From: Geotalea daltonii FRC-32
GTDB lineage: Bacteria; Desulfobacterota; Desulfuromonadia; Geobacterales; Geobacteraceae
Direction of reading: 5' to 3'
DNA length: 32,000 bases
NCBI RefSeq assembly: GCF_000022265.1
Contig: NC_011979.1
Coordinates: 390,001 to 422,000 of the forward strand
A program made the translations under genes and the position numbers. The notes under the pieces were generated by a model that saw only the letters and a program-made list of their open reading frames with translations, had not been told where the DNA came from and did not search any database. This document shows positions 1,359-29,008 of the stretch, piece by piece; the first letter of the stretch is position 1, and every line of letters starts with the position of its first letter.

Positions 1359-2726
1359 CTACTGTTTTTCGACCGTCACCGAATCGAGAACCGCGGTAAT
1401 ACGACGGTTCTGCTGACGTCCTGCCTCGGTTCCATTGTCGGCAATTGGGCGGGTCATGCCGTAGCCCTTGGCGGTGAGGCGGTCGGCGGCAATGCCGTGC
1501 TTTTTAATCAAGTAGCTGCGGACGGCTTCGGCGCGGCGCTGGGAGAGCTTCATGTTGGCGGCAGCTGATCCCACATTGTCGGTGTGCCCTTCGATCACCC
1601 CTTTAACCGTAGGGTATTTCTGCATATAATCGGCAACTTTCTTGATTTCGCCGGCATATTTGGGCTGAATGTCGTTCTTCCCGGTGACGAATTGAATGTT
1701 GATGGACATGCTGAGGGTTTCCAGGTCCGGGCAGCCGTCGGCTTTCACCTTGGTTCCCTTGGGGGTGCCTGGGCATTTGTCCAGGTAATCGGCAACGCCG
1801 TCGCCGTCGGAGTCGACTGGGCAGCCATCCTGGTCAACCTGAACTCCTGCGGGGGTACCGGGACACTTGTCCAGGTAGTCGGCGACGCCGTCCTTGTCGG
1901 AGTCAACAGGGCAGCCGTCCTTATCTACCTGAACGCCGGCCGGGGTGCCCGGGCACTTGTCCAGGTAATCGGCAACGCCGTCCTTGTCGGAATCAACGGG
2001 ACAGCCGTCCTTGTCAACCTTGACGCCTGCAGGAGTGCCAGGGCATTTATCCAGGGTGTCGATAACGCCGTCATTATCGGAATCGGCGGGTGCAGGCGGA
2101 GGAGCGACAACAGGAGCGGGAGCCGGAGCCGGTTCGGGGGCTGGTGCTGGTGCCGGTTCGGCTTTGGCAACGGGAGCCGGTTCCTTGGCTGCGCCAAAGG
2201 AGTAGACGAGGCCGAGATTATATTCATAGTTACTGTAGGAGTCCCCTTCATGCTTGAAAATCAGGTGACGGAAATCGCCCCTCAGTGCCCAAGTATCGGA
2301 GATGAAGTACTTGATGCCGGGGCCGTAGTCGAATACGCCGCGGGTCAGCTTGGTGCCGTCATTGCTGTCAAGGGACATGCCGCTGTAGCCGGCGGCGATA
2401 TAGGGCACCAGCCTGTTGTCGGGGAAAATGTGCAGCAATGCATCGGCGCCGTAGCGATAGAAATCGGTTTTCGTCGAGCTCCTGGTTCCTTCAGTGCGGG
2501 TATAGTCGAAGAGTGCCTCGGCGCCAAGGTGTTTGGTGAAGTTGTAGCCGGCCCGGATGCCTCCCACAGGCTGGGTCTCCAGGTGCTGTTTACCGTCAAA
2601 GGTGTATCCTCCCACGATGGGAGAGAGGTAAAAGGCCCCGGGTTCGACTCCTGCAGCCGAAACCGTGCCCACCGAGAGCAGCAGGGTGCCTGCTGCTGCC
2701 AACAGCATGCGGTTGAATAACTTCAT
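1359..2726 (-). CDS. OmpA family outer-membrane protein: N-terminal beta-barrel, Pro/Ala linker, four thrombospondin type 3-like repeats, C-terminal OmpA peptidoglycan-binding domain
   Basis: ORF 1359..2846(-), trimmed to the internal ATG at 2726 (MKLFNRMLLAAAGTLLLSVGTVSAAG signal peptide) preceded by GGAGGAA. Repeats are DSDKDGVADYLDKCPGTPAGVQVDKDGCP. The C-terminal tail has the OmpA_C-like motif (GHTDNVGSAAANMKLSQRRAEAVRSYL). Confidence 0.9.
   Translation of the reverse strand: MKLFNRMLLAAAGTLLLSVGTVSAAGVEPGAFYLSPIVGGYTFDGKQHLETQPVGGIRAGYNFTKHLGAEALFDYTRTEGTRSSTKTDFYRYGADALLHIFPDNRLVPYIAAGYSGMSLDSNDGTKLTRGVFDYGPGIKYFISDTWALRGDFRHLIFKHEGDSYSNYEYNLGLVYSFGAAKEPAPVAKAEPAPAPAPEPAPAPAPVVAPPPAPADSDNDGVIDTLDKCPGTPAGVKVDKDGCPVDSDKDGVADYLDKCPGTPAGVQVDKDGCPVDSDKDGVADYLDKCPGTPAGVQVDQDGCPVDSDGDGVADYLDKCPGTPKGTKVKADGCPDLETLSMSINIQFVTGKNDIQPKYAGEIKKVADYMQKYPTVKGVIEGHTDNVGSAAANMKLSQRRAEAVRSYLIKKHGIAADRLTAKGYGMTRPIADNGTEAGRQQNRRITAVLDSVTVEKQ
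1728..2084 (-). repeat. four tandem ~93-bp coding repeats (TSP3-like Ca-binding repeats) inside ompA-like gene
   Basis: The peptide unit D-x-D-x-DG-V-x-D-x-LDKCPGTP-x-G-x-x-V-x-x-DGCP occurs four times in a row. The units are also highly similar at the DNA level. Confidence 0.85.
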
Positions 2727-6257: not shown

Positions 6258-8747
6258 TTACAAACGCTCCAGTGTTTCAATGCAGCGTTCCATATGGATG
6301 CCGGGGCCGAGCACACGGACGAAGATATCGCCCGTTTTTTCAATGCGCCGCGGCACGGTTCTGATGGTAAAATCCCGCGGTTCCAGCCCCGGCGCCACCT
6401 CGCTCCAGTAAAGGGGGGTGGAAACTGTTGCTCCCGTTCTGGGGCGGATGCTGTAAGGAGCGGCAAGGGTCTGGCCCCGCTTGTTCTGCAGAAAATCAAG
6501 ATAGACCTTTCCCTGTCTCTTGGCCGGACTCCTTTCCAGGCTGGTGAAATCCGGCACCAGATGGTTGGCAAGGGTGGCGATGAGGTGGGCGAACCGCCCT
6601 GCTGTTTCATAGTCGTACCTGGCTCCGAGGGGAACATAGATATGCATGCCGGTGGCGCCGGAGGTCTTGGGAAAGCCCACGGCCCCGGCCCGGTCCAGAA
6701 CCTCTTTTACCGCCAGGGCCGTTTCCACTACTTTCTCGAAGCCGATTTCCTCAGGGTCCAGGTCAATTACCAGGTAGTCCGGGTTATCCAGGCTCCCCAG
6801 CCGGGAGAGCCAGGGATTGATCTCGATACACCCCAGATTGGCCATGTAGATAAGGCTTTCTTCATCCTGACAGATGAGGAAGGTGATGGTTTTGTGCTGT
6901 GACTCGGAGTATATGGCCTCGGTCAACGGCCAGTCCGCTACCATGTCCCTGACGTCCTTCTGGAAAAACCCTGCTTCCTCGATGCCGTTGGGGGTGCGGT
7001 AGAGGGACTCGGGGCGGTCACGCAGATGGGGGAGCAGGTAGGGTGAAATCGTGCGGTAATAGTCAATGACGTCCCTTTTAGTGTAGCCTTCTGCAGGCCA
7101 AAAGACCTTGTCCAGGTTGGTCAGCTTAAGCCGCCTGCTGCCGATGGTCAGTTCTTTTTCCGCCAGACCGGCTTTTTCTGCGGACGGAGGTGGCGCCGCC
7201 ATGGGACCGGGAAATGTTTCCCGGATTATAGTCACCGGGTCCTTGTCCTGACGCAGGCCGAGAAAGACAGGTTGCCGCATGACGCCATCGCTGGTCCATT
7301 CGGAAAAGGAGACTTCGCAGACCAGTACCGGCTTCACCCATTGGGCCGGCATCCTTGTCGCGGCCCTGGTTTTGAATGGAGAGTCCCCCTGAACCAACGG
7401 CAGCAGCATGTCATGGAGTTCATTAAGACTCGCCTCGTCAAAGCCGCCGCCACTGGTGCCGATGTATACCAGTTCTCCCTTGTCGTAGGCACCCAGCACC
7501 AGGGTGCCGAATTTTTTCCGGCTTCCCCTTGGCTCCGTAAAGCCGCAGATGATGGCCTCCTGCCGGAGCGTAGCCTTGACCTTTAACCATGCACTGCTTC
7601 TTTTCCCCGTTTCGTAGCGACTATCTGCCAGTTTGGCGACGATTCCCTCCAGGCCGTTATCCTGCGCGGCCTGAAAGAAGGCGATGCCGGTTTCACCGAT
7701 ATGTTCGCAATACCTCACCTGGGGGAGGTCGGGAAGTATTTCCTGCAGGAGGGTCTTTCGGGTAAGGAGCGGCAGGTTGCGCAAATCGCGGCCGTCAAGG
7801 TAGAGGAGATCGAAGATGAAGTAAAGGATCGATCCTTCCCCGGTGCGGTCATGGTTCTGCAGCAGCTGGAAATCGGACCTGCCGTTTTCATCCATGGCCG
7901 TCACTTCTCCATCAAGGATGGCCTCTCTACCTAATCCGGCAAGGGCGGCGGCAATGGTGGGAAACCTGTTGTTGAAAGGGAGCAGATTGCGGGAATAGAG
8001 GAGCACCGACCCGGCAGAGATTTCGGCGATGGTGCGGTAACCATCCAGCTTGATCTCGAAGACCCAGTCGGGGTGGTCGAAAGCATCCTTCACCAGCGTG
8101 GCGAGCATGGGCTTGACGTTGTGGGGCATGGGTGCGGCTTCGCCGGGCATATCGGCCATGACTGGCTCTTCCCCTTCCGGCCCCAGTTCATCCAGCCTTC
8201 GCCCCGAGACCACCGACCGGTCATGCCGTGTGATATCTGCCGCCGTGGCATGTTCATCGTCCTTTTTAACCAGCAGCCAGGAATTGCCCTTTCCACTTCG
8301 GATCTTGACCAGGGCAAATCTGCCCTTGAGCTTGTGGCCGTGGAGAATGAACTTCAGATCTCCCTTTGCCAGCCCCTGGCGCAAGATTCGTTCGCTTTCG
8401 CTACGCTCCTCCGTCCCATAGGCGTGGCAGGTCCCCTCATCCCAGATGATTACGGCGCCGGCACCGTAGTTGCCTGCCGGAATGATCCCCTCGAAATTCC
8501 TGTAGTCGAAGGGATGGTCCTCTACCATCATGGCCAGCCTTTTCACCGCCGGGTCGAGGGACGGTCCTTTGGGCACCGCCCAGCTCTTCAGCACCCCGTC
8601 CAGTTCCAGGCGAAGGTCATAGTGCAGGTGGGACGCGGCGTGTTTTTGCACGACAAAGCGGAGGGCCGGCTCCGATGGGCCTGCTCTCCCTTGAGGCTCC
8701 GGGGTACGATCGAAATCGCGCTTCTTTCGGTAGTCGTCCAAGGTCAT
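6258..8747 (-). CDS. ligD: ATP-dependent DNA ligase LigD, three-domain form (3'-phosphoesterase - ligase - polymerase/primase)
   Basis: 829 aa. The N-terminal PE domain has YRKKRDFDRTPEP...FVVQKHAASHLHYDLRLE. The ligase domain has adenylation motif I EIKLDGYR. The C-terminal LigD-Pol-like region has DLDP...GMHIYVPL. Confidence 0.95.
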   Translation of the reverse strand: MTLDDYRKKRDFDRTPEPQGRAGPSEPALRFVVQKHAASHLHYDLRLELDGVLKSWAVPKGPSLDPAVKRLAMMVEDHPFDYRNFEGIIPAGNYGAGAVIIWDEGTCHAYGTEERSESERILRQGLAKGDLKFILHGHKLKGRFALVKIRSGKGNSWLLVKKDDEHATAADITRHDRSVVSGRRLDELGPEGEEPVMADMPGEAAPMPHNVKPMLATLVKDAFDHPDWVFEIKLDGYRTIAEISAGSVLLYSRNLLPFNNRFPTIAAALAGLGREAILDGEVTAMDENGRSDFQLLQNHDRTGEGSILYFIFDLLYLDGRDLRNLPLLTRKTLLQEILPDLPQVRYCEHIGETGIAFFQAAQDNGLEGIVAKLADSRYETGKRSSAWLKVKATLRQEAIICGFTEPRGSRKKFGTLVLGAYDKGELVYIGTSGGGFDEASLNELHDMLLPLVQGDSPFKTRAATRMPAQWVKPVLVCEVSFSEWTSDGVMRQPVFLGLRQDKDPVTIIRETFPGPMAAPPPSAEKAGLAEKELTIGSRRLKLTNLDKVFWPAEGYTKRDVIDYYRTISPYLLPHLRDRPESLYRTPNGIEEAGFFQKDVRDMVADWPLTEAIYSESQHKTITFLICQDEESLIYMANLGCIEINPWLSRLGSLDNPDYLVIDLDPEEIGFEKVVETALAVKEVLDRAGAVGFPKTSGATGMHIYVPLGARYDYETAGRFAHLIATLANHLVPDFTSLERSPAKRQGKVYLDFLQNKRGQTLAAPYSIRPRTGATVSTPLYWSEVAPGLEPRDFTIRTVPRRIEKTGDIFVRVLGPGIHMERCIETLERL

Positions 8748-8771
8748 GAAGTTCTCGAAAGAGGCTCAGTA

Positions 8772-8938
8772 GGCAGTCGTGGTTTCGGGAGTGAGTGACA
8801 GCGCCGGAGCGGCGAGCGGACACCCGCCATAGGTCATTGGACGAAAATAGCGGATAACGGCGTTTCCGGAGCTGGGAAAGACGTCACTGCCAGGTCCGCA
8901 GCTCCGGCGCAGAACGAACGGACGAAGCCGCGACTGCC
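8772..8938 (+). repeat. structured intergenic repeat, copy C (inverted relative to copies A and B); candidate ncRNA or MITE-like palindromic element
   Basis: It fills the ku-ligD spacer. With the reverse complements of 27261-27433 and 28599-28770 it shares GGCAGTCG, GGGAGTGA, AGCGGCGAGCGGACACCCGCC, AGGTCCGCAGC, CGAACGGACGA and CGACTGCC in the same order. The 16-bp closing stem (8772-8787 with 8923-8938) contains two T-G pairs that are wobble-compatible only on this strand. Confidence 0.85.
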
Positions 8939-8953
8939 GGCCGCACCCCTGTC

Positions 8954-9733
8954 CTACGCCGCCTTGCGCTTTTTCTCCTCCAGACTCTTCTTCAACAGGG
9001 CCATCATGTCCACCACATTGGAGGGCTGGGGGCGTTTCCCCTGGGGCTGGGGTTGAATGCCCTGTGCCTTCTCCTCGATGATTCTTTTCAGATCATCCAT
9101 GTAGCTGTCCTTGTATTTGGCTGGGTCGAACCTGGTGGAGTACTGGTCGATAAGCATGAGGGCCAGGTCGATTTCCTGCTGGCGGAGGTTTTCACCCTGG
9201 GGAAGCTTCAGCTCGGCATGGCTTCGTACCTCCTCCTGGTAGCGCATCTGATTGAGAACCAGCACATCCTCCAGCGGCTTGACGATGCCGATGCTTCCCC
9301 TGTTGCGCAGGACGTAGGAGGCGATTCCCACCTTGCCCGATTTCTTCAGTGCTTCCCGCAGCAAGGCATACGGCTTGGCACCTGTCTTGTCCGGCTCCAG
9401 GTAATAGGGTCGCTCGAAGTATCTGCTGTCGATCTCCTGTTCGTCGACGAAATCGAGAATGTCGATGAGGTGGGTCTTTTCCACGCTGGCAATTTCAAAA
9501 TCCTGCTCGGTAAGAACAATATATTCGCCGCTGGCATGCTGGTAGCCTTTGACGATCTCGCTCATGGGTACTTCCCGGTTCTCAGCCTTGCAGACTTTGA
9601 TATAGTTTATGGGGTGCAGGTCGGTTTTGTGCAGCAGGTTCAGGTCCAGTGAGTTGCTTTCGGAACCGCTGAAAAGTTTCACCGGAATGTTAACCAGGCC
9701 GAAACTGATGGAACCGGTCCAGATGGCTTTCAT
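8954..9733 (-). CDS. ku: Ku protein (non-homologous end joining)
   Basis: MKAIWTGSISFGLVNIPVKLFSG... is the canonical bacterial Ku N-terminus. 259 aa with a basic C-terminal tail. GGGAGG lies upstream of the ATG. Confidence 0.95.
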   Translation of the reverse strand: MKAIWTGSISFGLVNIPVKLFSGSESNSLDLNLLHKTDLHPINYIKVCKAENREVPMSEIVKGYQHASGEYIVLTEQDFEIASVEKTHLIDILDFVDEQEIDSRYFERPYYLEPDKTGAKPYALLREALKKSGKVGIASYVLRNRGSIGIVKPLEDVLVLNQMRYQEEVRSHAELKLPQGENLRQQEIDLALMLIDQYSTRFDPAKYKDSYMDDLKRIIEEKAQGIQPQPQGKRPQPSNVVDMMALLKKSLEEKKRKAA

Positions 9734-13842: not shown

Positions 13843-14049
13843 GGAGCATGAAAAACGACATCTTAGCTGTTTCCATCCGGAAAGGGTTCTTTTCTGCCTT
13901 GGCGGCGTCAATCTGCGGGCTTGCTTGTGCTGCGTACCGATGTACGCCTCCGCGCAACCCCTTGATTTCCTTGCCAGGACAAAAAATCCCTCATTTCCGG
14001 TCTGGAAACTGCTAGTGTCACATCCGGAGTTTCCGGATGGACACTAGCT

Positions 14050-14468: not shown

Positions 14469-14762
14469 TTATCTTCCGCCACTGGTCATGACGCCAAACG
14501 TGCCACCGGCGCCAGTGCCGGTATCCGTGCCGCCGCCTGTGCCGGTACCTGTGCTGCCGCCGGTTCCGGTGCCGCTTGTCCCACCAGTATCAGTTCCGGT
14601 TCCTCCTGTCGATCCGCCGGTTCCGCTACCGGAGGTGCCACCTGTATCACCGCCGGTTCCACCACCGGTACCCCCCTCTTTTTTACACCCGGTGCTAAAG
14701 ACCATTCCACCTAGAGCAATCAGCGCTGCAATTGTATAAACCGCTTTTTTCACACTTTTCAT
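14469..14762 (-). CDS. small secreted/lipoprotein-like protein with Gly/Thr/Ser-rich low-complexity repeats
   Basis: MKSVKKAVYTIAALIALGGMVFSTGC signal with a Cys, then about 65 residues of (G/T/S)-GG-type repeats. GAGGAGG RBS. The overlapping + strand Pro/Val ORF is its mirror image. Confidence 0.6.
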   Translation of the reverse strand: MKSVKKAVYTIAALIALGGMVFSTGCKKEGGTGGGTGGDTGGTSGSGTGGSTGGTGTDTGGTSGTGTGGSTGTGTGGGTDTGTGAGGTFGVMTSGGR

Positions 14763-22344: not shown

Positions 22345-23028
22345 TCAATACTTGACCGGTCCCCAGACGAAGCGGCCGGAATGATCGATGTATCCCTTTT
22401 TCCCGTCGATTTCCACCAGCGCCAGTCCGTCGACGAAGGCATCGGCGTTTTCGAAGGCAGGCTGGATGGCGATTTTTCCGCTCTTGCCCACATAGCCCCA
22501 TTTGCCGTCAGACTTGATCCTCGCCAGCCCTTCGGTAAAATCGTCCACATCCTTGTATTGAGCGGGAACGACCTTCCTTCCGGCTTTGTCGACAAAGCCC
22601 CAGCGGCCATCGATCTTCACTTTTGCCATGCCGTCCCTGAAATTACCCGCATCTTCGAATTCAAGGGGAATTTTTACCTTGCCGCCATGGTCCACAAAGC
22701 CCCACTTCTTTTTGCTCCTCACCTTGGCCAACCCTTCGGAAAACTCGTCGTTGTCGTCATAGACCGGTGAAACGACCACCTTGCCGCTCCTGTCCATGAA
22801 GCCCCACAGGTCATTTACCTGGACCCGGGTCAGCCCCTCGATGAAACCGCCACGCACGTCATCGAACCTTGGAGCGATAACCTCTTTGCCCTGGTGGTTG
22901 ATAAAGCCGATTTTGCCGTCCCGCTTGATTTCGTAAAGGACAGCTCCCTGCTTCTTCTGCTGACCGCCAAAGGCGGGCAGCGCCAGGGAAAGCACGAGAC
23001 AGGCAAGAGAGAAGATCAGTCGTTTCAT
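22345..23028 (-). CDS. WG-repeat (KWG) containing secreted protein
   Basis: Signal peptide MKRLIFSLACLVLSLALPAFG, then about six repeats of the form K/R-WGF-V/I-D-x-x-GK-x-V-I-x-P-x-F/Y-D/E-D. AGGAGG RBS. Confidence 0.8.
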   Translation of the reverse strand: MKRLIFSLACLVLSLALPAFGGQQKKQGAVLYEIKRDGKIGFINHQGKEVIAPRFDDVRGGFIEGLTRVQVNDLWGFMDRSGKVVVSPVYDDNDEFSEGLAKVRSKKKWGFVDHGGKVKIPLEFEDAGNFRDGMAKVKIDGRWGFVDKAGRKVVPAQYKDVDDFTEGLARIKSDGKWGYVGKSGKIAIQPAFENADAFVDGLALVEIDGKKGYIDHSGRFVWGPVKY

Positions 23029-26554: not shown

Positions 26555-27136
26555 TTACAACAACCTGTTAGGGGTCATGGCCTTTTTCAACTGGTGCAGC
26601 AGGTCGTAAGTGATTCCCCAGAGCTGCCGTTGCCGGGGTCCGGGGATAGAGACTGCCGGGAAGCTCCTCATGCGTCCCTTGAACAGGAACCTGATCCGGG
26701 CATGGCCCGCCGGGTCATCCATGTTCCGGAGGGGAAACCAGAAGGCCTCGGCCACCTCCTGGGGGGCCGGGTGCAGTACCGGCTCATCCCGAAGGGCGTA
26801 AACGAAGCAGGATACGACGATATTCAAACCGCTCGGGGCAATGTCGTTGAGGCGCCCCAGGTAGCGGGCGACGGACAGGTCCAGGCCGAGTTCTTCCCGG
26901 GTTTCCCGCTGGGCGGTGTTCATGGGGCCGTTGTCGGCGCTTTCCGTTCTCCCCCCCGGCAGGCCGATCTGGCCTGACCAGTAGTCCTTTTCGTTGACCG
27001 ATCGCTGGATGAGCAGGACGCTCAGGCCGTCCCGCCGCTCGCGCAGGATCATGGCCACTGCGGCATGGTCGCCGGGCTTCCCTGTCCGGGGGCGATGGCG
27101 GCCGAGCACGCGCTGAATCTGCTCGAACGAGTCCAT
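26555..27136 (-). CDS. Nudix hydrolase, CoA pyrophosphatase (NudL)-like
   Basis: Nudix box GGRTESADNGPMNTAQRETREELGL preceded by LLIQRSVNEKDYWSGQIGLPGG (NuCoA-type motif). The start was placed at ATG 27136 (MDSFEQ, GAGGA upstream). The track's TTG at 27229 or the ATG at 27217 cannot be excluded. Confidence 0.75.
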   Translation of the reverse strand: MDSFEQIQRVLGRHRPRTGKPGDHAAVAMILRERRDGLSVLLIQRSVNEKDYWSGQIGLPGGRTESADNGPMNTAQRETREELGLDLSVARYLGRLNDIAPSGLNIVVSCFVYALRDEPVLHPAPQEVAEAFWFPLRNMDDPAGHARIRFLFKGRMRSFPAVSIPGPRQRQLWGITYDLLHQLKKAMTPNRLL

Positions 27137-27260
27137 GCTGCCTGTCCTCAGCCCTTGCTGACGCTCTGGTCGTGGTGAAATGGCTTGTATCTTCATTGTA
27201 TAACTCTTTGCTTTCATGGCTATGTCCAAAAAAAGGTCATCCGTGAATTACGTGGAATAA

Positions 27261-27462
27261 AAGGCAGTCGCACCATCGTCCGTTCGCTCTGTCGCCACAG
27301 CTGCGGACCTTGCGGGGCCGCCCGCGTTAATGGTGCACGATTCTTGAATTGGTTGGTTGCCTCCGTTCCACATGCGGCGGGTGTCCGCTCGCCGCTGTAG
27401 CTCATCGTTCACTCCCGCCGTCCCGACTGCCTTTCCTTAAAGTGTCTGAAGAACACAAAAAA
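27261..27462 (-). repeat. structured intergenic repeat, copy A; candidate ncRNA or MITE-like palindromic element
   Basis: The core 27261-27433 is bounded by AAGGCAGTCG ... CGACTGCCTT and aligns along its whole length with 28599-28770. The shared 3' flank TGTCTGAAGAACA plus an A-run abuts the CDGSH terminator. The strand is assigned from a G-U pair in the internal helix (GCUACAGC / GCUGUGGC on the minus strand). Confidence 0.85.
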
Positions 27463-27492
27463 GGCCGGACCGGCAATGCGCCCGGTCCGGCC
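27455..27492 (-). terminator. rho-independent terminator of the yceI-CDGSH operon
   Basis: 11-bp stem GGCCGGACCGG / CCGGTCCGGCC (27463-27473 / 27482-27492). On the minus strand it is followed by TTTTTTGTGTT. Confidence 0.85.
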
Positions 27493-27517
27493 TTGTCATG
27501 CCGCATGTTTTACTGCC

Positions 27518-27736
27518 CTACTTGGCGCAGCTCCCGTCGCAGAAGGGGGCGTTAGCGGTCTTGCCGCAGTTGCAGAGATATACCTGCTGCTTCTCCTTGA
27601 CTTCAAAGGAGATGGGGGTGCAGTCGGTCACCTGGTGGGCGCCGTCACAGAAAGGTGTGGCGGCTTTTCCGCAGGTACAGCGGTAGTAGGTTCCCGGTTC
27701 CAGTTCCAGTACGATCGGTCCTTGTGCTTGGGTCAT
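27518..27736 (-). CDS. CDGSH iron-sulfur domain protein (two motifs; the second reads CDGSC)
   Basis: 72 aa. CTCGKAATPFCDGAH and CNCGKTANAPFCDGSC. Confidence 0.85.
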   Translation of the reverse strand: MTQAQGPIVLELEPGTYYRCTCGKAATPFCDGAHQVTDCTPISFEVKEKQQVYLCNCGKTANAPFCDGSCAK

Positions 27737-27757
27737 GGTAAGTTCTCTCCTTGGTGC

Positions 27758-28348
27758 TTATTTATTTTTGATCAGTTCGATTTCGAGAATTATGGCGATT
27801 TCTTCACCAACGGCTACCCCACCGGTTTCAAGGGCGGCATTCCAGACCAGGCCGAAATCCTTGCGGTTGATGGTAGTGGTTGCTGTGGTGCCGCGGCGGA
27901 AGTTACCCCAAGGGTCCTTGCTTTCTTTGGTCAGGGCATCCACATCGAGCACCACTGGACGGGTCACTCCGTGCAGAGTCAGATTGCCGGTAACTTTAAG
28001 CTTTTTCCCTGCTTTCGCCACGCTTTTGGAAACGAAAGTCATGGTCGGGTATTTGGCCACATCGAAGAAATCGGCGCTGCGCAGGTGTTCGTCACGCTTG
28101 GCGGCGTTGGTGTTGATGGATGCGGTGTCGATGGTGACGTCAACCTTGGACTTGGTGATGTCCTTGTCGTTGAGCTCAAGGACGCCAGCTACCTTCTCGA
28201 AGCTCCCCTTGACATTGGAGACCATCAGGTGGCGGACTTTAAATCCCACGTTGGAATGATCGGCGTCGATCTTCCAGCTGGAGGCCGAAGCGATGACCGG
28301 CAGGGACAGGGCGATGATTGCTGCGATGGATGTGACAATGCGTTTCAT
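27758..28348 (-). CDS. yceI: YceI family polyisoprenoid-binding periplasmic protein
   Basis: Signal peptide MKRIVTSIAAIIALSLPVIASA, then WKIDADHSNVGFKVRHLMVSNVKGSF...RDEHLRSADFFDVAKYPTMTF...LTLHGVT, typical of YceI. AAGGAG RBS. Confidence 0.9.
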   Translation of the reverse strand: MKRIVTSIAAIIALSLPVIASASSWKIDADHSNVGFKVRHLMVSNVKGSFEKVAGVLELNDKDITKSKVDVTIDTASINTNAAKRDEHLRSADFFDVAKYPTMTFVSKSVAKAGKKLKVTGNLTLHGVTRPVVLDVDALTKESKDPWGNFRRGTTATTTINRKDFGLVWNAALETGGVAVGEEIAIILEIELIKNK

Positions 28349-28516
28349 GGTTGTTTCTCCTTTTGTTGTGTTGATAATAAATTGTTTAATATTGAACTTA
28401 TTGCCTAAAAAATTTTTCTGCCTGGATCTTATGGGTACTGTCGGTGTGCTCCTCCTTTATATTTTTTCGGGGTGATACGCTCGCAATTGATTTAAAATCA
28501 TATCGTTTGAACTTAA

Positions 28517-28543
28517 ACTATATTTTTCTGAAACAACTGTCAA
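28517..28543 (-). promoter_or_regulatory. sigma70-like promoter candidate for yceI operon
   Basis: The minus strand reads TTGACA (28543-28538), 15 nt, TATAGT (28522-28517) in an AT-rich stretch. The spacer is short, so this is tentative. The inverted repeat CAACTG...CAGTTG overlaps the -35. Confidence 0.3.
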
Positions 28544-28598
28544 CTATTTTTTTCAGTTGGGCAAAAAAATTCTTCCAGACGTTTCCTGGGGACATAAC

Positions 28599-28798
28599 AA
28601 GGCAGTCGTGGCGTCGTCTGTTCGCTCTGTCGCTACTGCTGCGGACCTTGCTGTGTCGCCCGCGTAACGGTGCACGATCCTTCAAGTGACGGATCGCCTC
28701 CGTCCAACATGGGGCGGGCGTCCGCTCGCCGCTGTAGCTCGTCGCTCACTCCCGACGCCACGACTGCCTTCCTCGGAAATGTCTGAAGAACAAAAAAA
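28599..28798 (-). repeat. structured intergenic repeat, copy B; candidate ncRNA or MITE-like palindromic element
   Basis: The core 28599-28770 has a perfect 18-bp closing stem AAGGCAGTCGTGGCGTCG / CGACGCCACGACTGCCTT. It aligns with copy A throughout (by eye roughly four-fifths identical). It has the same flank TGTCTGAAGAACA plus an A-run next to a different terminator hairpin. Confidence 0.85.
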
Positions 28799-28830
28799 TC
28801 GCCAACGGCTATGGATAGGCCGTTGGCGAT
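28790..28830 (-). terminator. rho-independent terminator downstream of the ABC-transporter operon
   Basis: 12-bp stem ATCGCCAACGGC / GCCGTTGGCGAT (28798-28809 / 28819-28830). On the minus strand it is followed by TTTTTTTGTTCTTC. Confidence 0.8.
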
Positions 28831-29008
28831 TACAGCAGCACGGAAACGGGGGATATTTTGTCCTGGCAAGGAATACAGGGGATTGCGCGGAGACGTACGG
28901 ACCCTCTCTCTATCTCTCTCTCATAGGGAGATAGCATTCTTTGCTTCCCCCTTTATGGGGGAAGATAGAAGGGGGGATGGGTACGCCCCGCAAGCAAGGC
29001 CGCAGAGA

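What the first reader, a model, noticed from the sequence alone, without database searches (positions are those of the whole stretch)
8772..8938. Divergent inverted copy C in the ku-ligD spacer supplies compensatory changes and a strand call
Copy C keeps the conserved blocks but has a completely different P2 helix. It reads GCGCCGGAGC ... GCTCCGGCGC (10 perfect bp). Copies A and B have GCTACAGC ... GCTGTGGC / GCAGTAGC at the same place, between GGAGTGA...GGCGA-GCGGAC and GTCCGC-A. Several base pairs were therefore replaced on both arms while pairing was kept.

Strand evidence:
- The P1 of copy C has two T-G pairs (8780 with 8930, 8783 with 8927).
- The P2 of copy A has one T-G pair.
- All three are G-U wobbles on the same sense (plus strand for C, minus strand for A and B) and would be A-C mismatches on the other strand.

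This points to a folded RNA, or single-stranded DNA, of that polarity. For copy C that polarity is antisense to the ku-ligD transcript. The element occupies most of the 206-bp spacer and ends 24 nt before the ligD start codon, so it could also affect ligD translation or operon processing.
Basis: partly seen in the sequence, partly recalled or inferred. Interest (0 to 1): 0.66.

Follow-up and report, generated by a model that had tools for sequence, protein, structure and literature searches.

The report
Structured mobile repeat in ku-ligD spacer
The hairpin between ku and ligD is one copy of a roughly 220-bp non-coding jumping element of Geotalea bacteria, unusual because evolution keeps one specific strand of its body folded; it is not a dedicated regulator of the DNA-repair genes.

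Summary
Copy C (8772-8938) has a 16-bp P1 with two T-G pairs and a perfect 10-bp P2, and shares conserved blocks with copies A and B.

It is a dispersed repeat. One pattern scan found about 47 further copies in four Geobacteraceae genomes. Full copies are 217-225 bp, with imperfect terminal inverted repeats of about 22 nt and 9-bp target duplications. Insertion is mostly into the T tract of intrinsic terminators. Relatives keep the uninterrupted terminator at the site of A. One relative has a 12-bp ku-ligD spacer and two others carry unrelated repeats there. C is therefore a lineage-restricted insertion, not a conserved ku-ligD regulator.

The strand call holds on 50 copies:
- 97% of cells are paired and 15 of 33 pairs show compensatory changes.
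- Changes to G-U outnumber changes to A-C 53 to 11.
- Symmetric G·A loops are nearly invariant.
- The same strand folds better in all 50 copies.
- The bias does not depend on orientation relative to host terminators.

Selection therefore acts on a single-stranded form. I favour RNA but cannot exclude ssDNA. No Rfam family matches and no partner transposase was found. It is the same class as the Chunjie MITE, but identity could not be checked.

The parts
8772..8938 (+). Core of copy C, 167 nt. The plus strand is the folding ('R') polarity. It is antisense to ku-ligD.
   Evidence: nhmmer E = 1.4e-33.
8772..8787 (+). P1 5' arm. It pairs with 8923-8938 (16 bp; T-G at 8780/8930 and 8783/8927).
   Evidence: In the family, helix 1 is 96.6% paired and 10 of 15 pairs show compensatory changes.
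8923..8938 (+). P1 3' arm.
8788..8800 (+). 5' side of the purine-rich non-canonical segment (GGAGTGAGTGACA). It faces 8911-8922 (AGAACGAACGGA). Symmetric GGA/GGA and GA/GA tandem G·A mismatches are separated by 2-bp Watson-Crick steps.
   Evidence: G·A or A·G at these positions in 45-50 of 50 copies. The short helix 20-25/154-159 is 96.5% paired, and pair 25/154 covaries.
8911..8922 (+). 3' side of the purine-rich segment.
8801..8810 (+). P2 5' arm (GCGCCGGAGC). It pairs with 8901-8910 (GCTCCGGCGC).
   Evidence: In the family, P2 is 8 bp. The two central pairs take the forms GC/AU/GU and CG/AU/GC/GU/UA/UG.
8901..8910 (+). P2 3' arm.
8816..8821 (+). P3 5' arm (GCGGAC). It pairs with GTCCGC at 8894-8899. 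The helix is invariant, so no covariation is available. An alternative local hairpin GCGG-ACAC-CCGC competes with it.
   Evidence: 99% paired, never varies.
8822..8893 (+). Variable apical domain. It differs almost completely between subfamilies.
   Evidence: Alignment A2.
8748..8771 (+). Degenerate remnant of the outer arm (type-2 terminal repeat). It abuts the ligD ATG (...CGAGAACTTC|ATG on the minus strand).
   Evidence: Comparison with the arm consensus by eye. The automatic arm score was low, so this is weak.
8939..8953 (+). Degenerate remnant of the other outer arm, between the core and the ku stop codon.
   Evidence: weak.
27237..27455 (-). Copy A, full element of 219 bp (core 27263-27431). 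The folding strand is minus, co-directional with yceI/CDGSH and NUDIX.
   Evidence: An empty-site comparison shows a precise insertion.
27227..27236 (.). Target-site duplication of A, left copy (CAAAAAAAGG on the plus strand).
   Evidence: Relatives have a single GGCC-TTTTTTTG-GACATAGCC.
27456..27464 (.). Target-site duplication of A, right copy (CAAAAAAGG). It is the T tract of the upstream terminator.
27461..27494 (-). Intrinsic terminator whose T tract received copy A.
   Evidence: 13-bp stem, 10 G-C pairs. It is conserved in L084, L085 and L086.
28571..28790 (-). Copy B, full element of 220 bp (core 28601-28768), with both arms of type 2.
28562..28570 (.). Target-site duplication of B, left copy (CAAAAAAAT). 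It is an exact 9-bp repeat of 28791-28799.
28791..28799 (.). Target-site duplication of B, right copy. It is the T tract of the ABC-operon terminator hairpin (28798-28830, minus strand).
6258..8747 (-). ligD (context).
   Evidence: Pfam LigD_N, ligase and Prim-Pol domains.
8954..9733 (-). ku (context).
   Evidence: Pfam Ku, E = 2.6e-48.

Best explanation
Copy C is an old copy, with decayed arms, of a roughly 220-bp non-autonomous transposable element (a MITE) found in Geotalea and related Geobacteraceae.

Shown:
- The element is multicopy: about 17 copies in Geotalea sp. SG265 and about 26 in a Geobacter MAG among the copies retrieved.
- It has imperfect terminal inverted repeats of about 22 nt.
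- It makes 9-bp target duplications.
- It lands mainly in the T tract of intrinsic terminators, in either orientation.
- It is present or absent at orthologous sites.

Inferred: it is moved in trans by a DDE-type transposase that makes 9-bp staggered cuts. That partner was not found.

The 165-172-nt body folds as a rod. From the outside in, it has a 16-bp P1, a segment of symmetric tandem G·A mismatches, an 8-bp P2, a 6-bp P3 and a variable tip.

Shown: evolution keeps this fold on one strand only, the plus strand of C and the minus strand of A and B. The bias is the same whichever way the copy faces the host terminator.

Inferred, and my preferred reading: the selected molecule is an RNA of that polarity that matters for the element itself, for its spread or for control of its partner, rather than for neighbouring genes. 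In the window's subfamily this RNA would end at P1 followed by a U-rich tract.

At ku-ligD the operon mRNA carries the complementary strand, which is slightly less stable. Any effect on ligD would be a side effect of the insertion.
For: Family and mobility:
- The genome scan gave 54 loci, 46 of them from Geobacteraceae. nhmmer found only one further copy in those loci.
- The arms and flanks were aligned.
- Copy B has an exact 9-bp repeat, CAAAAAAAT.
- Copy A is a precise insertion in a terminator T tract, with CCTTTTTTG duplicated. G. toluenoxydans, SG265 and a third relative have the intact terminator there.
- Flanking direct repeats are enriched (permutation p = 0.001).
- 42 of 50 copies have an A5+ or T5+ run within 50 nt, against 20% at random positions in the same loci (p = 3e-22).
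- ku-ligD spacers: SG265 has a copy. A relative whose Ku is 96% identical to SG265's has other repeats. One relative has a 12-bp spacer.

Fold and strand:
- 97.2% of cells are paired, and 15 of 33 pairs show changes on both sides. No measure was reached in any of 500 shuffles. Slid controls gave 25-54% paired.
- Parsimony counts 53 WC-to-GU events against 11 WC-to-AC (p = 1e-7), plus 40 double compensatory events.
- Unpaired columns show no transition strand bias (179 against 153).
- The bias holds on terminal branches for both orientation classes (17:4 and 15:1).
- The R strand is more stable in 50 of 50 copies with RNA parameters and 49 of 50 with DNA parameters.
- The G·A positions are nearly invariant.
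- In subfamily 1 the 10 nt after P1 hold 5.2 T on the R strand against 2.7 on the other strand.
Against: - No promoter for the R strand was found in or next to the element (plus inspection).
- Subfamily 2 has no U tract after P1.
- G·T and tandem G·A are also tolerated in DNA hairpins, so ssDNA is not excluded.
- No autonomous element with matching ends was found, and no transposase or RAYT gene recurs next to copies.
- Many copies have imperfect or missing duplications.
- Copy C shows no duplication and only weak arm remnants.
- The events counted on 'terminal' branches may include evolution in unsampled source copies or gene conversion between copies.
- No expression data were available.
Confidence: 0.7

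Rival explanations
1. It is the same mobile element, but the strand-specific fold is needed in single-stranded DNA. One strand would fold during excision, integration or replication of the element, as in hairpin-dependent recombination systems. No RNA would be involved.
For: - The R strand is also more stable with DNA parameters in 49 of 50 copies.
- G·T and sheared G·A pairs are among the most stable DNA mismatches (established knowledge).
- No promoter was found.
- The polarity does not depend on host transcription direction.
Against: - The 9-bp duplications and terminal inverted repeats point to double-strand staggered cuts. Known ssDNA transposons of the IS200/IS605 and RAYT type leave neither.
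- No HUH/Y1 gene lies near any copy.
- The U-rich tract after P1 in subfamily 1 fits an RNA 3' end.
Confidence: 0.2
2. The repeats are kept by the host for local functions, such as back-up terminators, 3'-end stabilisers or insulators between transcription units. Selection would then act on each inserted copy.
For: - 84% of copies lie next to T or A tracts and terminator hairpins.
- Copies A and B follow terminators in the direction of the upstream genes.
- In subfamily 1, P1 plus a U tract looks like a terminator on the R strand.
- Window B and the SG265 copy at the same site differ by two compensated P1 pairs (read from alignment A2).
Against: - Both orientations relative to the T tract occur (25 against 13). 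The G-U bias is just as strong in the minority orientation (15:1).
- At the B site G. toluenoxydans carries the core inverted.
- Sites are empty in close relatives with no visible replacement.
- The nearly invariant G·A loops and P3 go beyond what a terminator needs.
Confidence: 0.15
3. Copy C is a dedicated cis-regulatory RNA of the ku-ligD operon that controls ligD translation or processing.
For: - The element fills most of the 206-bp spacer and ends 24 nt from the ligD ATG.
- SG265 also has a copy in the same spacer and the same orientation.
Against: - The selected strand is antisense to the operon.
- A relative whose Ku is 96% identical to SG265's lacks the element. A relative with 84% Ku identity has a 12-bp spacer. 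Two others hold unrelated sequence.
- The window and SG265 copies differ almost completely in the apical domain and sit at different distances from the ku stop, so they may be independent insertions.
- The same element sits at many unrelated loci.
Confidence: 0.05
4. There is no selection on folding. The apparent covariation would come from DNA-level processes in an imperfect palindrome, such as template switching within quasi-palindromes or gene conversion between copies.
For: - The whole element is an imperfect inverted repeat.
- Arm types are exchanged in some copies, and the core is inverted at one orthologous site. Both point to recombination between arms or copies.
Against: These processes are symmetric between strands. 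They cannot explain any of the following:
- 53 G-U-making events against 11 A-C-making events.
- The absence of any such bias in unpaired columns.
- The nearly invariant asymmetric G·A loops.
- The R strand being more stable in 50 of 50 copies.
Confidence: 0.05

Closest known systems
Chunjie MITE of Geobacter (Geotalea) uraniireducens Rf4 (Chen et al. 2008, Genetics 179:2291, as summarised in PMC3184786, PMC10969869 and PMC6042816)
   Same: - Same bacterial genus.
- Same class of element, with no coding capacity.
- Size: Chunjie is 178-235 bp, with a reference copy of 219 bp. Here A is 219 bp, B is 220 bp and the family spans 217-225 bp.
- Terminal repeats: about 21 bp in Chunjie, about 22 nt here.
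- Both make 9-bp direct repeats.
- Both have very stable predicted hairpins. Chunjie is reported at -98 to -130 kcal/mol. This family gives -77 to -113.
- Both have tens of copies, mostly intergenic.
   Different: - The Chunjie sequence could not be obtained.
- The two-block pattern present in 50 of the 51 copies found gave no hit in any G. uraniireducens record in the species-representative genome scan. I could not confirm that Rf4 is in that collection.
- The cited Chunjie duplication, ACGACCGGT, is G+C-rich. Here the duplications are A or T tracts of terminators.
- Chunjie is described as A+T-rich. This family is 60% G+C.
- The secondary sources report no strand-specific covariation for Chunjie.
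REPINs/REP elements mobilised by RAYT transposases
   Same: They are non-autonomous intergenic repeats near gene ends, and their hairpin is preserved by compensatory change. Selection on a single-stranded form is inferred for them too (from my own knowledge of that literature).
   Different: - REPs are units of 20-40 nt with a GTAG head, and they leave no target duplication.
- They are tied to a RAYT gene flanked by REPs.
- Here the body is 165-172 nt with several helices and conserved G·A loops, with 22-nt arms and 9-bp duplications. No RAYT-like neighbour was found.
Correia/NEMIS, ERIC and RUP-type bacterial MITEs
   Same: They are short, have terminal inverted repeats and target duplications, are multicopy and fold as long hairpins when transcribed. 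They often sit at gene boundaries and can add terminators or processing sites.
   Different: - There is no sequence relation, and no Rfam match.
- This family targets terminator T tracts.
- Its internal region is more conserved than its arms, and it carries a clear one-strand signature.
Transposon-encoded structured RNAs (IS110 bridge RNA; IS200/IS605 and IscB omega/reRNA)
   Same: They are structured RNAs of about 150-200 nt encoded in non-coding transposon ends, with stems separated by large conserved internal loops. The RNA serves the element rather than the host.
   Different: - No recombinase or nuclease gene lies next to any copy.
- Those elements lack 9-bp duplications.
- There is no Rfam match to HEARO or related models.
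- No complementarity between the loops and the element ends or targets was demonstrated.
- This is a resemblance of concept only.

Membership tests
Bacterial MITE | Short (under about 500 bp), with no coding capacity | tested here: met
   Full copies are 217-225 bp. No reading frame is open in all copies.
Bacterial MITE | Terminal inverted repeats | tested here: met
   The arms are GGTTCATCCGGGAATTCCGGGG and GGTTCTTCCGACATTTCCGGGG, complementary at 18 of 22 positions. Both arms were recognised in 22 of 50 copies. They are degenerate in the others, including copy C.
Bacterial MITE | Target-site duplication | tested here: met
   B has an exact 9-bp repeat. A has a 9-bp repeat confirmed against empty sites. 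For the family, permutation p = 0.001. Many copies are decayed, and C shows none.
Bacterial MITE | Multicopy, dispersed, with presence/absence at orthologous sites | tested here: met
   (about 50 copies in five genomes). Empty sites are shown.
Bacterial MITE | A cognate autonomous IS with the same ends | tested here: inconclusive
   All Geobacteraceae hits were complete short elements. No transposase recurs among the neighbours. The metagenome scan with the arm pattern gave only chance hits.
Chunjie MITE | Sequence identity to the published Chunjie copies (e.g. NC_009483:2632106-2632324) | not testable with these tools
   The paper and its sequence are not held. That genome cannot be read here.
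Chunjie MITE | Many copies in G. uraniireducens Rf4 | tested here: inconclusive
   No Rf4 record appears among the 54 hits of the family pattern. This argues against identity, but I could not verify that Rf4 is in the collection.
Chunjie MITE | 178-235 bp, about 21-bp terminal repeats, 9-bp direct repeats | tested here: met
   compared with the descriptions in PMC3184786 and PMC6042816.
REP/REPIN-RAYT | Short REP units with a conserved head, no duplication, and an associated RAYT gene | tested here: not met
   The unit is 165-220 nt, duplications are present, and no Y1-type gene recurs among the neighbours.
IS200/IS605-derived PATE | No terminal inverted repeats, no duplication, insertion 3' of a fixed 4-5-nt target | tested here: not met
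   Terminal repeats and 9-bp duplications of varied sequence are present, for example AAGTT, CTATTTT and CAAAAAAAT.
Any Rfam RNA family (riboswitch, leader, sRNA, HEARO/omega RNA and others) | Match to a curated covariance model | tested here: not met
   No hit in the whole window at gathering thresholds. No hit over A or B at E <= 10 on either strand.
cis-regulatory 5' leader of ligD | Conserved position and sense orientation upstream of the regulated gene across relatives | tested here: not met
   The element is absent from four of five related ku-ligD spacers. The selected strand is antisense. The orientation is not fixed at other loci.
Intrinsic terminator | G+C-rich stem immediately followed by a U tract | tested here: inconclusive
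   On the R strand, P1 is followed by sequences such as UUUUAUU in subfamily 1 (mean 5.2 T in 10 nt) but not in subfamily 2 (2.4), and not at copy C.

The most novel reading that the evidence does not exclude
The conserved body may encode a structured RNA of about 170 nt that works as a cofactor for the element's own mobilisation. For example, it could be a scaffold or guide bound by a still unidentified recombinase encoded elsewhere in the genome. The symmetric tandem G·A loops would be the protein-binding platform. Copies would then be selected for RNA function at the level of the element lineage. That would make this an RNA-dependent, non-autonomous bacterial transposon that homes to terminator T tracts.
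Probability: 0.12. Interest if true: 0.8.

Novelty: new member of a known kind. Interest (0 to 1): 0.42.

Why it matters
The finding moves a candidate regulatory RNA of the bacterial end-joining operon into the class of mobile intergenic repeats. This prevents over-interpreting the ku-ligD spacer.

The family is a clean natural example of three things:
- A MITE that homes to the T tract of intrinsic terminators, a site where insertion leaves the upstream terminator intact.
- A short mobile element whose interior is constrained on one strand only. The covariation signal is as strong as in many curated RNA families, and the G·A loops are nearly invariant.
- A spacer (ku-ligD) that different repeat families have colonised repeatedly in sister lineages.

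If the folded strand is an RNA that serves the element, that would be a new kind of dependency for a bacterial MITE. Even if it is not, about 50 aligned copies give a ready-made covariance model for annotating Geotalea genomes and avoiding false small-gene calls over the repeat.

Tried and rejected
- Rfam: the whole window at gathering thresholds, and 27100-28900 at E <= 10, gave nothing over the elements.
- Sigma-70 promoter scan around A and B: only one weak site, outside the elements. By eye I saw no sigma-54-like or ECF-like promoter in the arms.
- Metagenome scan with the arm pattern GGTTCTTNNNGACATTTCCGG, meant to find an autonomous partner or more copies: 22 hits, all chance matches in unrelated coding DNA, none with the core.
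- All-against-all BLAST of ORFs within 3 kb of every copy, looking for a recurrent transposase or RAYT. It found only spurious ORFs over the repeat and generic families: ABC-F, NifS-like, TolC-like and NtrC-type.
- Retrieving the Chunjie paper by PMC id and DOI, and its sequence from the MUSTv2 supplements: none are held.
- Full-text search for sequence strings from the element: no relevant paper.
- The Geobacter genome papers on 'multicopy nucleotide sequences' cover other species and do not address this family.
- A SINE-like retro-element reading was rejected, because flanking A tracts and T tracts occur on both sides of the folding polarity.
- A replication-orientation explanation was rejected, because both orientations occur within 20 kb of the window.

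Full report
**1. The observation**

- P1 pairs 8772-8787 with 8923-8938. It is 16 bp, with T-G at 8780/8930 and 8783/8927.
- P2 pairs GCGCCGGAGC (8801-8810) with GCTCCGGCGC (8901-8910), 10 perfect bp.
- GCGGAC (8816-8821) can pair with GTCCGC (8894-8899).
- Pfam confirms ligD (6258-8747, minus) and ku (8954-9733, minus). The spacer is 206 bp and the core ends 24 nt from the ligD ATG.
- The plus strand folds at -86.4 kcal/mol (z = -4.6). The minus strand folds at -77.2 kcal/mol (z = -3.7).
- Copies A (core 27263-27431) and B (28601-28768) are reverse-complement relatives.
- A two-block pattern taken from the conserved blocks hits exactly these three places in the window, against 0.00 expected.

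**2. It is a dispersed repeat, not a feature of this spacer**

The same pattern was scanned over one genome per bacterial species and returned 54 loci. Eight are chance hits in unrelated phyla. The other 46 are:
- Geotalea sp. SG265, 16 loci.
- A Geobacter sp. MAG (clean984), 26 loci.
- G. toluenoxydans, 3 loci.
- A Geobacteraceae MAG, 1 locus.

A profile search of all these loci found only one extra copy that lacks the pattern. The two blocks are therefore nearly invariant in the family.

The exact Ku protein of the window lies on a contig of 4,304,501 bp. From memory, that is the chromosome length of Geotalea daltonii FRC-32. This identification is an inference.

**3. Anatomy of a full copy**

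Most copies carry outer arms beyond P1.
- In the register of A and B, the left arm reads GGTTCATCCGGGAATTCCGGGGAAAGG.
- The right arm, read inward from its outer end, is GGTTCTTCCGACATTTCCGGGGAC.
- Together they form an imperfect terminal inverted repeat of about 22 nt, complementary at 18 of 22 positions.
- Full copies are 217-225 bp and 60% G+C.
- Some copies have the same arm type on both sides (window B, L011) or have the arm types exchanged (L033).

**4. Evidence that it moves**

*Site A.* G. toluenoxydans (L084), SG265 (L085) and a third relative (L086) all have an uninterrupted terminator followed directly by the next gene. It reads GGCCGGACCGG...CCGGTCCGGCC-TTTTTTTG-GACATAGCC-ATG. In the window, the 219-bp element A sits inside that T tract, with CCTTTTTTG on both sides.

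*Site B.* The element is 28571-28790, flanked by an exact 9-bp repeat CAAAAAAAT (28562-28570 and 28791-28799). The right copy of that repeat is the T tract of the terminator of the ABC-transporter operon.
- SG265 has a copy at the same site in the same orientation.
- G. toluenoxydans has the core in the opposite orientation within the same outer boundaries.
- A fourth relative has none.

*Across the family.*
- In the 22 copies with both arms recognisable, flanking direct repeats are longer than in mismatched flank pairs (permutation p = 0.001).
- Examples that are not homopolymers include AAGTT, CTATTTT, TTTTGC and AGAA(A)TAAG.
- 42 of 50 copies have an A5+ or T5+ run within 50 nt, against 20% at random positions in the same loci (p = 3e-22). 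The background was not restricted to intergenic DNA.
- Many of these runs abut G+C-rich hairpins.

The target is therefore mainly the T tract of intrinsic terminators. Both orientations occur: 25 copies have the T tract on the folding strand and 13 have it on the other strand.

**5. The ku-ligD spacer in relatives**

| Relative | Ku identity to window | ku-ligD spacer |
|---|---|---|
| SG265 (L048) | 93% | A family copy, same orientation as C |
| L059 | 93% | 224 bp of unrelated CCCTCTCC...GGAGAGGG palindromes |
| L058 | 86% | 131 bp of the same unrelated repeats |
| L060 | 84% | 12 bp (TAG-CCGGGGCAGACC-ATG) |
| L061 | 76% | 145 bp of unrelated sequence |

- The Ku of L059 is 96% identical to that of SG265.
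- The SG265 copy has a different apical domain from C and lies at a different distance from the ku stop codon.

C is therefore a lineage-restricted insertion, or two independent ones, in a spacer that several repeat families have colonised. It is not a conserved part of ku-ligD control. C shows no clear duplication and only weak arm remnants. This fits an old copy.

**6. The fold and the strand**

I call the plus strand of C the R strand. The results below are on 50 aligned copies.

*Pairing and covariation.*
- RNAalifold recovers P1, a short helix inside the 'loop', and P2.
- With P3 added, 97.2% of 1641 cells are standard pairs, and 15 of 33 pairs have changes on both sides.
- No measure was reached in any of 500 shuffles. 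Sliding the partners gives only 25-54% pairing.
- The most variable pairs are 4/175 (UA 31, AU 18, GC 1), 6/173, 13/166 and 25/154, plus the two central P2 pairs. Those take the forms GC/AU/GU and CG/AU/GC/GU/UA/UG.

*Direction of change.*
- Parsimony on a neighbour-joining tree counts 53 changes from a Watson-Crick pair to G-U, against 11 to A-C (binomial p = 1e-7). It also counts 40 double changes from one Watson-Crick pair to another.
- Transitions in unpaired columns show no such bias (179 against 153). The asymmetry is therefore selection rather than mutation bias.
- On terminal branches the ratio is 17:4 for copies whose R strand runs with the flanking T tract and 15:1 for copies that run against it. 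The polarity belongs to the element, not to host transcription.

*Stability.*
- The R strand is more stable than its complement in 50 of 50 copies with RNA parameters (-76.6 against -67.5 kcal/mol).
- It is more stable in 49 of 50 copies with DNA parameters.

*The conserved 'internal loops'.* They are symmetric purine mismatches: GGA/GGA, GA/GA and GACAGA/GACCGA. G·A or A·G occupies these positions in 45-50 of 50 copies. On the other strand they would be C·U mismatches.

**7. RNA or ssDNA, and for whom**

- No Rfam family matches on either strand.
- No promoter is evident.
- In the window's subfamily, P1 on the R strand is followed by a U-rich tract such as UUUUAUU. The mean is 5.2 T in 10 nt, against 2.7 on the other strand. 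In the second subfamily the difference is small.
- The frequent, reversible G-U states resemble functional RNA helices. There are 165 G-U cells against 13 A-C cells and 34 cells with other mismatches.
- G·T and sheared G·A pairs are also tolerated in DNA, so this does not settle the question.
- The 9-bp duplications and terminal repeats argue for a double-strand DDE-type insertion rather than a known ssDNA transposition pathway.

I favour an element-intrinsic RNA, at roughly 60:40 over ssDNA. This is an inference.

A host-level terminator or insulator role is possible for individual copies. It does not explain the orientation-independent polarity or the nearly invariant loops.

**8. Comparison with known elements**

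The class is a bacterial MITE. All defining features that could be tested are met, except a cognate autonomous IS, which was not found.

The closest named element is Chunjie of G. uraniireducens Rf4.
- Shared features: 178-235 bp, terminal repeats of about 21 bp, 9-bp direct repeats and very stable hairpins (PMC3184786, PMC10969869, PMC6042816).
- Points against identity: no Rf4 hit in the pattern scan, the G+C-rich example duplication ACGACCGGT, and the description 'A+T rich'.

I therefore file this as a new member of the MITE class, with an unresolved possibility that it is a Chunjie relative. To my knowledge the strand-specific structural constraint has not been described for Chunjie. I could not read the primary paper.

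**9. Verdict**

- The structural and strand inference is confirmed.
- The implied link to ku-ligD is not supported.

The feature is real and moderately interesting. It is a terminator-homing MITE family whose body is constrained on one strand. Its molecular role is still open.

Noticed in passing
window 13921-14004 (+) and 28836-28995 (-): A second, unrelated dispersed repeat. 63 nt are 84% identical in inverted orientation (TACGNCTCCGCGCAANCCC..TTCCTTGCCAGGACAAAA..), and the similarity extends further. One copy lies just downstream of the ABC-ATPase stop codon, next to the terminator that received copy B.
   Followed up: partly
window 28905-28975; L058:2280-2412; L059:2280-2505: There are short C/T-rich palindromes (CTATCTCTCTCTCATAGGGAGATAG, CTTCCCCCTTTATGGGGGAAG) beside copy B. 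Similar CCCTCTCC...GGAGAGGG hairpin repeats fill the ku-ligD spacers of two relatives that lack the element. This may be a further REP-like family that competes for the same spacers.
   Followed up: partly
L084:2079-2236 compared with window 28601-28768 and L085:2077-2244: At the orthologous ABC-operon/yceI intergenic site, G. toluenoxydans carries the core in the opposite orientation to the window and SG265, inside the same outer boundaries. This could be inversion by recombination between the arms or an independent insertion into the same T tract.
   Followed up: partly
L033:2947-3118, L011:603-773, window 28571-28790: The two arm types are not fixed relative to the core. L033 has them exchanged. 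L011 and window B have type 2 on both sides.
   Followed up: partly
window about 28515-28543 (-): A near-consensus sigma-70 promoter (TTGACA, 17 nt, TATAGT) lies upstream of yceI. It is conserved in all four relatives and sits just downstream of copy B, so yceI does not depend on transcription through the element.
   Followed up: partly
window about 27500-27757 (-): By synteny with relatives, a 72-aa zf-CDGSH gene lies between yceI and the terminator that received copy A. My ORF list, which had an 80-aa cut-off, did not show it.
   Followed up: no
window 1762-2084: Three tandem 90-nt repeats (80-83% identity) lie inside an OmpA-family outer-membrane protein gene with thrombospondin type 3 repeats (1359-2846, minus).
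   Followed up: no
window 22472-22807 and 14524-14661: Two further in-frame periodic repeats were seen. One has a 102-nt period with 4 units. The other is a short Pro/Gly-like CCGGT-rich array. Both probably encode repeat domains.
   Followed up: no
all copies (A2 alignment): The element is stop-free in one or another reading frame in up to half of the copies (frames R1 and F0). Spurious ORFs of at least 90 aa spanning the repeat formed the largest 'protein' clusters among the neighbours. Gene callers are likely to annotate false hypothetical proteins over these repeats.
   Followed up: partly
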